From positions 28,892,001-28,956,000 of the forward strand of contig OZ024742.1 of NCBI GenBank assembly GCA_964016885.1: DNA of 64,000 nucleotides, written 5' to 3'. Shown here piece by piece: positions 504 through 1,182 of the stretch. The notes under the pieces were generated by a model that saw only the letters and a list, made by a program, of their open reading frames with translations, was not told the origin of the DNA and made no database searches. The number at the start of each line of letters is the position of its first letter. Position 1 is the stretch's first letter. The DNA comes from Eledone cirrhosa. Lineage: Eukaryota. The position numbers were made by a program, and so were the translations under genes.

Positions 504-591
504 TCCTCTTGATAAGTCGGCAGACCTCGCAAGGACTCTATATCTTTGATATATTGTTTTTGTTTATGCCACGAAACTACGTAGTCGAGGA
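504..591 (+). ncRNA. Type I hammerhead ribozyme, U3-A8 core variant, long stem II insert
   Basis: Stem I TCCTC/GAGGA; core TTGATAA; stem II GT(C)GGCA/TGCCAC enclosing ~45 nt; GAAA; palindromic stem III ACTACGTAGT; GUC cleavage triplet ending at 586. Confidence 0.7.
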
Positions 592-1094
592 ATTTAGGAA
601 CAGTTTAGGTATGATACATTTTATTACTAATTATATCTAAATGTTTCTTCTCTCTTCATAATGTATTTTTAACTCTGATACTGGTTCAGTCTGGTTCAAA
701 CTGAATTGGTCTGTCCCAGTCATTCATTGAGCAACATCGGTGAAGTTGGCACCCTTAACTCACAGTTGGGTGCGGATGCATTCATGTATATATGTGTGTG
801 TCCGCATGTATCTGTGTGTTTCTAAATATATTAATAACTCCCTCTGGTCGAGCAATCTTTGAAGTGTGGGGACAACTGGAAAGCTTCCATTACTCATACT
901 TCTCGCCTTCTTCACTACCTCTTCTACGGCCTCGATATGAATACCCCCTCCGCCTCCGTGGTATTTTCTTCGTGGTTATAAGAGGCTTAGCTCTGTTTCT
1001 CGACCGTTATATCGCGTGACTGTCTCCCCCTCCGCCTTTTGGGATTCTTTCTCACGTCGTGTAGACGCGTTCTTGAGACTAGTAAAATGAGGTA

Positions 1095-1182
1095 TCCTCT
1101 TGATAAGTCGGCAGACCTCGCAAGGACTCTATATCTTTGATATATTGTTTTTGTTTATGCCACGAAACTACGTAGTCGAGGA
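1095..1182 (+). ncRNA. Type I hammerhead ribozyme, second copy
   Basis: Same sequence as 504-591 at +591. Confidence 0.7.

What the first reader, a model, noticed from the sequence alone, without database searches (positions are those of the whole stretch)
504..1182. Hammerhead with U3-A8 core swap and a long stem II insertion in a 591-bp dimer
Seen: the core reads UUGAUAA instead of CUGAUGA, so both partners of the 3-8 pair change together. All other core nucleotides, three stems and a GUC site are intact. Stem II encloses ~45 extra nt, and stem III is the 10-nt palindrome ACUACGUAGU. Known: C3-G8 is a tertiary Watson-Crick pair and U3-A8 variants can retain activity. Inference: a non-canonical HHR that standard CUGANGA searches would miss; cleavage at 586 and 1177 would release a 591-nt monomer.
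Basis: partly seen in the sequence, partly recalled or inferred. Interest (0 to 1): 0.75.

Follow-up and report, generated by a model that had tools for sequence, protein, structure and literature searches.

The report
Penelope-copied retrozyme with dimer hammerhead
This is one of thousands of copies of a small protein-free jumping repeat carrying a hammerhead motif that likely cuts its own RNA in pairs; its swapped core pair is already known, and its two-ended insertions suggest that Penelope-type enzymes likely copied it from a single, probably circular, RNA.

Summary
In detail: a type I hammerhead fold with a U3-A8 core at 504-591, repeated 591 bp later. The swap is not new. It is published for Schistosoma Penelope elements and other natural hammerheads, and it also occurs in autonomous Penelope elements of this genome.

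The motif lies in a young non-coding element (7,286 exact hits of a 25-mer). At least five subfamilies keep the core, covary in the stems and keep stem III palindromic, so it is predicted to cut as a dimer. The "insertion" is a conserved branched hairpin plus a likely pseudoknot (497-502/524-529).

Insertions end at two fixed sites (666, ~241) in (TA)n; 24 of 24 two-armed insertions use one of each, a Penelope footprint. Private variants are shared by all units and both arms and are enriched for A>G, pointing to a single RNA template, probably circular. Cleavage itself is untested, no RNA run was listed, and no autonomous partner was found.

The scan noted this family before on other DNA (e1-8674091, e1-8673856, e1-10324041). 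Verdict: a Penelope-mobilised non-LTR retrozyme, a modest structural variant of a known kind.

The parts
1..37 (.). (TA)n target microsatellite, left flank
   Evidence: locus L211 shows it continues beyond the window
38..71 (-). Inverted arm, 34 bp, reverse complement of 209-242; its 3' end is fixed end B
   Evidence: 100% over 34 nt; L211
72..107 (+). Head-to-head junction and 5' end of the long arm, with a 10-bp unit repeated 3.6 times (extra copies relative to unit 2)
90..680 (+). Unit 1 of the 591-bp repeat; no long ORF in six frames
681..1257 (+). Unit 2 (577 of 591 bp), ending at fixed end A
209..242 (+). Sequence up to fixed end B (~241; 832 in unit 2), inferred reverse-transcription start site
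   Evidence: 36 of 81 arms end here; loose ends at 240 running into TA
497..502 (+). 5' strand of the candidate pseudoknot, pairs with 524-529
   Evidence: 95.7% of cells paired in 43 copies but almost invariant
504..591 (+). Type I hammerhead 1: stem I 504-508/587-591, U3-A8 core 509-515, stem II 516-522/567-572, GAA 573-575, palindromic stem III 576-585, predicted cut after C586
523..566 (+). Stem II branch: pseudoknot 3' strand 524-529 and inner hairpin 530-562
587..1177 (+). Predicted 591-nt monomer RNA, linear or circular; strongly structured
   Evidence: circular fold -173 kcal/mol, z -6.9 against 60 shuffles
653..666 (+). Segment ending at fixed end A (666), inferred reverse-transcription start; predicted to pair back over the cut-site region
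   Evidence: 38 of 81 arms end here; MFE pairs 576-591 with 653-667
1088..1182 (+). Hammerhead 2, identical to hammerhead 1 including the pseudoknot strand; predicted cut after C1177
1258..1303 (.). (TA)n target microsatellite, right flank

Best explanation
This is one two-armed insertion of a young, high-copy, non-coding 591-bp repeat with a U3-A8 type I hammerhead fold, likely a non-LTR retrozyme that borrows Penelope-type enzymes. Shown: tandem units, head-to-head arms, two fixed 3' ends in (TA)n, covarying stems, a palindromic stem III kept across subfamilies. Inferred cycle: (1) a tandem copy is transcribed; (2) two hammerheads pair through the 10-nt palindrome and swap stem I strands, with the 497-502/524-529 pseudoknot likely holding stems I and II, and cut after GUC; (3) the 591-nt monomer is likely ligated into a circle, where pairing of 653-667 over the cut region would limit re-cutting; (4) a Penelope RT-GIY-YIG protein supplied in trans cuts both strands of a TA repeat and starts cDNA at internal sites A (666) and B (~241), one per strand; (5) each RT runs a variable distance, often more than once round the unit, and the two 5' ends are joined head to head.
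For: Family size: 7,286 exact hits; sister subfamilies give 174 and 258 hits. Covariation on 43 copies: 91.4% of cells paired, 0 of 500 shuffles as high, slid controls 33-49%, 11 pairs with double changes, including two in the palindrome. Two copies of 497-591 cofold, unconstrained, into the double hammerhead at -57.9 against 2 x -22.1 kcal/mol, and the monomer MFE is not the active fold. 74 of 81 arms end at A or B, 73 of those 74 abut TA, and 24 of 24 two-armed insertions are A+B, one being a duplicate. This matches two internal RT starts in a purified Penelope protein (PMC11167929) and the inverted-pLTR-plus-tail pattern (PMC3846280 passages). Autonomous Penelope families here also show paired fixed ends at TA. 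28 of 74 arms cross the cut site at least twice; the longest is 2,907 nt. 31 of 32 shared private variants are in every covering copy, 23 on both arms. A>G is 8 of 32 shared against 3 of 66 single variants, p=0.005. 5' truncations number 25 at the cut site (587), 15 at 592, 14 at 597 and 3 at 584.
Against: No cleavage, expression or circle was observed. The excess of 5' ends at 587 over 592 is not significant (25 v 15, p=0.15), and some of the 25 look duplicated. The MFE of the whole 90-1257 transcript lacks the hammerhead, 12 kcal/mol below the constrained double hammerhead (pseudoknot not scored). Of four other subfamily copies, one cofolded cleanly into a double hammerhead, one nearly, and two not. 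The pseudoknot is conserved but has only one cell with a double change. The CG-to-TA change in the palindrome could come from CpG decay. No autonomous partner shares DNA with the unit among 120 Penelope-type loci. In vitro, Penelope RT used uncleaved RNA and did not need the ribozyme (PMC11167929), and only 1 of 9 Xenopus retrozyme dimers cleaved (10.64898/2026.07.22.740005). Rows for the alignment were found by patterns that fix parts of the core, and 43 of 70 distinct motifs were aligned, leaving out several damaged ones.
Confidence: 0.8

Rival explanations
1. Same element and same Penelope enzymes, but the template is an uncleaved linear multimer transcript or a linear monomer read with end-to-end template jumps. 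The hammerhead is weak, protein-assisted or acts at another step, and no circle is needed.
For: Penelope RT used unprocessed RNA in vitro and ribozyme mutants inserted normally (PMC11167929). The whole-transcript MFE hides the hammerhead. There is only a weak pile-up of 5' ends at 587. Three loci have both arms ending at the cut site, which fits linear templates (no control).
Against: All-or-one sharing of variants across units and both arms (31 of 32) needs a one-unit bottleneck followed by re-expansion, which multimer read-through alone does not give; template jumping on a cut monomer would. Stems and palindrome are kept through at least five subfamilies.
Confidence: 0.25
2. The hammerhead cuts as a monomer, with the pseudoknot and long stem II making up for the weak stem III.
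For: The active monomer fold is only 3.1 kcal/mol above the MFE and the pseudoknot helix could add up to about -7. Pseudoknots speed other hammerheads (PMC3088659 passages). Most invertebrate retrozymes cleave efficiently (PMC7229834 abstract passage).
Against: The four central bases, which would be the monomer loop, stay self-complementary: 99.5% of cells in that helix paired, with A-U to G-C and C-G to U-A double changes.
Confidence: 0.2
3. The units are detached terminal repeats (pLTRs) of an autonomous Penelope element and are not a self-standing non-autonomous family.
For: The insertion anatomy is that of pLTR fragments, and autonomous elements here carry U3-A8 cores. Xenopus retrozymes are related to pLTRs (10.64898/2026.07.22.740005).
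Against: No ORF joined in register to any of the 81 arms mapped (ORFs near sister copies lie outside the element), arrays reach about five units, and there is no similarity to 120 Penelope-type loci.
Confidence: 0.1
4. An ordinary local tandem duplication with a chance hammerhead-like string.
For: Taken alone, the window shows only two near-identical copies.
Against: Thousands of dispersed copies with fixed ends and covarying stems.
Confidence: 0.01

Closest known systems
Metazoan non-LTR retrozymes (Cervera and de la Pena 2020, PMC7229834: passages and Discussion read; Li, Clavereau and Pollet 2026, 10.64898/2026.07.22.740005: parts 1-3 of 5 read, supplements closed)
   Same: Tandem non-coding units with one type I hammerhead each, high copy number; circle-templated reverse transcription by Penelope enzymes is proposed there.
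   Different: The unit is 591 nt, against about 170-400 nt for the RNAs tested in 2020 (the preprint gives 51-972 bp). It has a U3-A8 core, branched stem II and candidate pseudoknot. Two-armed insertions with two fixed ends were not described in the parts read. RNA is not shown here.
Penelope-associated hammerheads, including the U3-A8 variant of Schistosoma Cercyon elements and palindromic-helix-III variants (Cervera and de la Pena 2014, PMC4209133: parts 1-2 of 4 read)
   Same: U3-A8 covariation, palindromic helix III, conserved G10.1-C11.1, 4-5 bp helix I, long helix II, bulged helix II as in D. virilis, predicted dimer action.
   Different: Those are minimal motifs in pLTRs. This one has a 10-nt palindrome, no extra base between 9 and 10.1, and a 44-nt branched domain in stem II.
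Penelope-like element insertion mechanism (Frangieh et al. 2024, PMC11167929: parts 1-2 of 4 read; Arkhipova et al. 2013, PMC3846280: passages; Craig et al. 2021, PMC8557442: passages and section 11)
   Same: Two internal RT start sites, both DNA strands cut and extended, AT-rich or (TA)n targets, head-to-head inverted arms with unequal ends.
   Different: No ORF. The two ends are 166 nt apart (666 to 832), against a 30-40 bp tail in those papers. The partner clade is not identified.
Pseudoknotted hammerheads (Perreault et al. 2011, PMC3088659: passages and section 8 read)
   Same: A base-paired contact of about six pairs between the stem I and stem II regions (about 40% of their motifs); natural U3-A8 covariation.
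   Different: Here the contact is to an internal loop of a branched stem II in a motif predicted to need a dimer. The contact is untested.

Membership tests
Hammerhead ribozyme, type I | Conserved core with a 3-8 Watson-Crick pair, GAAA and NUH | tested here: met
   U3-A8 core, GAA-A15.1, GUC; invariant in 43 aligned copies, though the search patterns fixed parts of it
Hammerhead ribozyme, type I | Three helices with covariation, ends in stem I | tested here: met
   Double changes in stem I (3 pairs), stem II (1), inner hairpin (4) and stem III (2); 0 of 500 shuffles reach the paired percentage, relatedness not controlled
Hammerhead ribozyme, type I | Stem I - stem II tertiary contact | tested here: inconclusive
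   6-bp pseudoknot 95.7% paired but nearly invariant
Hammerhead ribozyme, type I | Match to an Rfam hammerhead model | tested here: not met
   No hammerhead family at E up to 1 in 1-6000; expected for an oversized variant
Hammerhead ribozyme, type I | Self-cleavage after position 17 | not testable with these tools
   Indirect only: 5' truncations 25 at 587, 15 at 592, 14 at 597, 3 at 584
Non-LTR retrozyme | Tandem units, each with a type I hammerhead, at least two consecutive | tested here: met
   Two motifs 591 bp apart here; up to five in one arm elsewhere
Non-LTR retrozyme | No protein coded, no LTR structure | tested here: met
   Six-frame translation shows no long ORF
Non-LTR retrozyme | Dispersed high copy number | tested here: met
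   7,286 exact 25-mer hits
Non-LTR retrozyme | Expressed as unit-length linear and circular RNA | not testable with these tools
   No run on record as RNA was listed
Penelope-mobilised element | Inverted arms with two distinct fixed 3' ends in AT-rich targets | tested here: met
   74 of 81 arms end at A or B; 24 of 24 two-armed insertions are A+B; 73 of 74 ends at TA
Penelope-mobilised element | Sequence shared with the pLTR of an autonomous partner | tested here: not met
   None in 120 loci drawn from 150 scored GIY-YIG hits and one Hydra-like family; only a sample of the genome's elements
Autonomous Penelope-like element | ORF with RT and GIY-YIG domains between pLTRs | tested here: not met
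   No ORF in the unit and none joined in register to the arms mapped

The most novel reading that the evidence does not exclude
An oversized hammerhead that combines obligate dimerisation through a 10-nt palindrome with a stem I-stem II pseudoknot makes a 591-nt RNA circle. The circle is A-to-I edited and locks its own cut site with the segment where reverse transcription starts. Two Penelope RTs then copy one such circle in rolling-circle fashion from both strands of a TA break. The genome would hold thousands of records of a retrotransposition step that the papers read here propose but do not show.
Probability: 0.4. Interest if true: 0.6.

Novelty: new variant of a known kind. Interest (0 to 1): 0.36.

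Why it matters
The U3-A8 swap by itself is of little news. The family is useful because it is young, abundant and split into subfamilies that supply natural compensatory mutants. It gives a ready test of three open points: whether Penelope-type hammerheads cut as dimers, whether a pseudoknot can serve a dimeric hammerhead, and whether animal retrozymes are copied from circles by Penelope enzymes. It also shows that Rfam and CUGANGA searches miss whole families of thousands of motifs in a genome.

Tried and rejected
Rfam scan of 1-6000: no hammerhead hit, only low-scoring matches, mostly miRNA models on TA repeats. DNA search of the own genome with 480-680 returned nothing, not even the window itself, so patterns were used. 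Pfam PF26215 is not in the library; PF01541 was used. Pattern for variants at position 15.3: 5 hits, three from an unrelated decayed family, two apparently chance. Expression: no RNA holder listed. Contigs of two coded runs of unrecorded kind are 621 and 620 nt, one unit plus 30, i.e. closed loops, which tandem DNA gives as well, so they are not used as evidence. Autonomous partner: none in 120 loci. A 21-nt match from one subfamily-E copy proved to be the end of an abundant SINE-like repeat and was rejected. An apparent pile-up of arm 5' ends at the cut site (4 arms) was mostly an artefact of where the reference began; one of the four holds. Both-arms-at-cut-site pattern: 3 loci, no control. 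Search of earlier findings by sequence gave nothing. Lunse, Weinberg and Breaker on dimeric Penelope hammerheads is not held; only its title and a review's summary were seen. Paper searches: hammerhead + U3-A8 gave 1 paper; octopus + hammerhead ribozyme gave 4 listed, none describing this family by title or abstract; retrozyme, rolling circle, reverse transcription, Penelope, inverted gave 20 listed, none showing two-armed circle copying by title or abstract. Subscription journals, Repbase, Dfam and the preprint's supplements were not seen and may hold this family.

Full report
Observation. It recurs 591 bp on; 90-666 and 681-1257 differ at one base. Rfam finds no hammerhead. No long ORF is present. 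A 34-bp inverted piece at 38-71 equals the reverse complement of 209-242, and the whole block lies between (TA)n tracts.

Family. An exact 25-mer spanning the cut site has 7,286 matches in the 3.0-Gb host genome, with 0 for the reversed control. Listed copies are dispersed, often spaced about 590 apart and often in opposed pairs, mostly 95-100% identical to the window. Patterns that exclude the main type found sister subfamilies: 174 hits (about 77% identical) and 258 hits with a different stem III.

Structure. One search gave 71 distinct motif strings, one spurious. I aligned 43 of the 70, covering five subfamilies and leaving out near-duplicates and several damaged copies. On a named structure 91.4% of cells pair (shuffles 87.7%, 0 of 500 as high; slid controls 33-49%), with double changes in stem I (3 pairs), stem II (1), the inner hairpin (4) and the palindrome (2). 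Related copies are not independent, and the patterns fixed parts of the core. Stem III stays a palindrome in three different forms, including the four bases that would be the loop of a monomer hairpin; the CG-to-TA change could also reflect CpG decay. The palindrome makes a +1.5 kcal/mol hairpin but a -12.9 duplex. Two copies of 497-591 cofold, unconstrained, into the double hammerhead (-57.9 against 2 x -22.1), while the monomer MFE is an inactive fold. One other subfamily copy did the same cleanly, one nearly, and two did not. The so-called insertion holds a 13-bp inner hairpin and six bases (524-529) that can pair with 497-502. This helix is 95.7% paired while its flanks change, but varies mainly U-G/U-A with one double change, so the pseudoknot is likely and not proven. 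Against activity: the MFE of the full 90-1257 transcript hides the ribozyme, pairing 576-591 with 653-667, 12 kcal/mol below the constrained double hammerhead, pseudoknots unscored. This could be a lock or simply mean poor cleavage.

The swap is known. Cervera and de la Pena found U3-A8 in about 1,300 Schistosoma motifs tied to Cercyon Penelope elements and described palindromic helix III as a dimer feature (PMC4209133). Perreault et al. report natural U3-A8 covariation, cite earlier in vitro activity, and find pseudoknots in about 40% of motifs (PMC3088659). In this genome a Penelope element with a 938-aa RT and GIY-YIG ORF (RVT_1 just under its cut-off, GIY-YIG over) carries a small U3-A8 hammerhead in both terminal repeats, seen 17 times in 120 loci.

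Insertion anatomy. Of 53 loci given to (one gave no match), 81 arms were mapped: 38 end at 666 (A), 36 at about 241 (B), 7 elsewhere, two of these cut by locus edges. In 51 insertions, all 24 with two defined arms pair one A with one B (two are one duplicated insertion); 73 of 74 A/B ends abut TA. The window is such a case: long arm to A at 1257, short arm to B at 38. Contigs of an independent run show loose ends at 240 and 666 running into TA. Sister subfamily copies end at the same two sites. A purified Penelope protein cuts and extends both strands of AT-rich DNA and starts at two internal RNA sites, which explains the tail of genomic copies (PMC11167929). Autonomous Penelope families here also show paired fixed ends at TA. 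This makes Penelope mobilisation well supported, though no partner shares DNA with the unit in 120 loci.

Template. 28 of 74 arms cross the cut site at least twice and the longest is 2,907 nt; single crossings are biased by how loci were chosen. Of 98 variants private to one insertion at positions covered twice or more, 66 are in one copy and 32 are shared; 31 of the 32 are in every copy and 23 on both arms, 11 from one older locus. So each insertion goes back to one unit sequence, as expected for one circle read round by two RTs, or a cut monomer read with template jumps. Shared variants are enriched for sense-strand A>G (8 of 32 against 3 of 66, p=0.005; 8 A>G against 2 T>C without the old locus, p=0.009), which fits A-to-I editing of the RNA template; numbers are small. 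As a test for cleavage in vivo I counted 5' truncations genome-wide: 25 at 587 (all true truncations, a few duplicated), 15 at 592, 14 at 597 and 3 at 584. The drop upstream of the cut site fits some linear cut templates, but 587 against 592 is not significant, and only four positions were sampled with unequal flank filters. Three loci have both arms ending at the cut site.

Comparison. It works like a metazoan non-LTR retrozyme, for which circles and Penelope mobilisation are proposed (PMC7229834; 10.64898/2026.07.22.740005), and meets the sequence-level membership tests. RNA and cleavage are untested, and that preprint saw cleavage in only 1 of 9 dimers. It is not an autonomous Penelope element.

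Earlier scan notes. The same family and reading were noted on other DNA (e1-8674091, e1-8673856), the pseudoknot in e1-10324041, editing scars in e1-8803865 and cleavage footprints in e1-9529586. I had seen the two fixed ends before and the pseudoknot. The editing and footprint tests were prompted by those notes and run here. They are not independent support.

Verdict. A real, well-conserved ribozyme fold in a known class of mobile element. The core swap is published. The branched, pseudoknotted, dimer-type architecture is a modest variant, and the insertion records make the proposed circle-copying step testable. Interest 0.36.

Noticed in passing
window 2685-2925: Small two-armed fragment of the terminal repeat of an autonomous Penelope family (L066 type), with its own minimal U3-A8 hammerhead on the minus strand at about 2762-2800 and that family's fixed end at 2925 against a long TA tract.
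   Followed up: partly
window 16162-63999: 71-bp satellite, about 674 copies, 96% identical, filling three quarters of the window; no hammerhead in its first units.
   Followed up: no
window 7609-8739: 312-bp tandem, 3.6 copies, 98% identical, between TA tracts; my hammerhead scan found no motif in it. Could be another retrozyme-like unit with a different ribozyme or core.
   Followed up: partly
window 1303-1520 and 1623-2502: Interspersed repeats also found in other loci: a SINE-like piece and an 880-bp element with 16/37-bp internal repeats.
   Followed up: no
L095 and L099 (minus strand), L070:5384-7320: Very abundant young Penelope family with a 713-aa frame showing DKT and CxCx5C motifs of the Hydra clade as described in PMC8557442; no Pfam hit; two fixed ends at TA; its hammerhead-like core looks atypical.
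   Followed up: partly
L066:2809-5622 (minus): Apparently intact 938-aa RT plus GIY-YIG Penelope ORF between two roughly 1-kb terminal repeats, each with a U3-A8 hammerhead.
   Followed up: partly
L031, L034, L035: Another, older family with a UUGAUAA core and a long stem II, unrelated in sequence to this unit, with decayed stem III.
   Followed up: partly
L260:1025-1518, L262:653, L267:1506, L109:892: Further unrelated hammerheads with canonical C3-G8 cores, enlarged stem II and palindromic stem III, some in two-armed insertions: oversized stem II is common in this genome.
   Followed up: no
L023 and L026 (G000:C1:19.62 Mb): The same two-armed insertion occurs twice 2.5 kb apart, a local duplication or an assembly repeat.
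   Followed up: no
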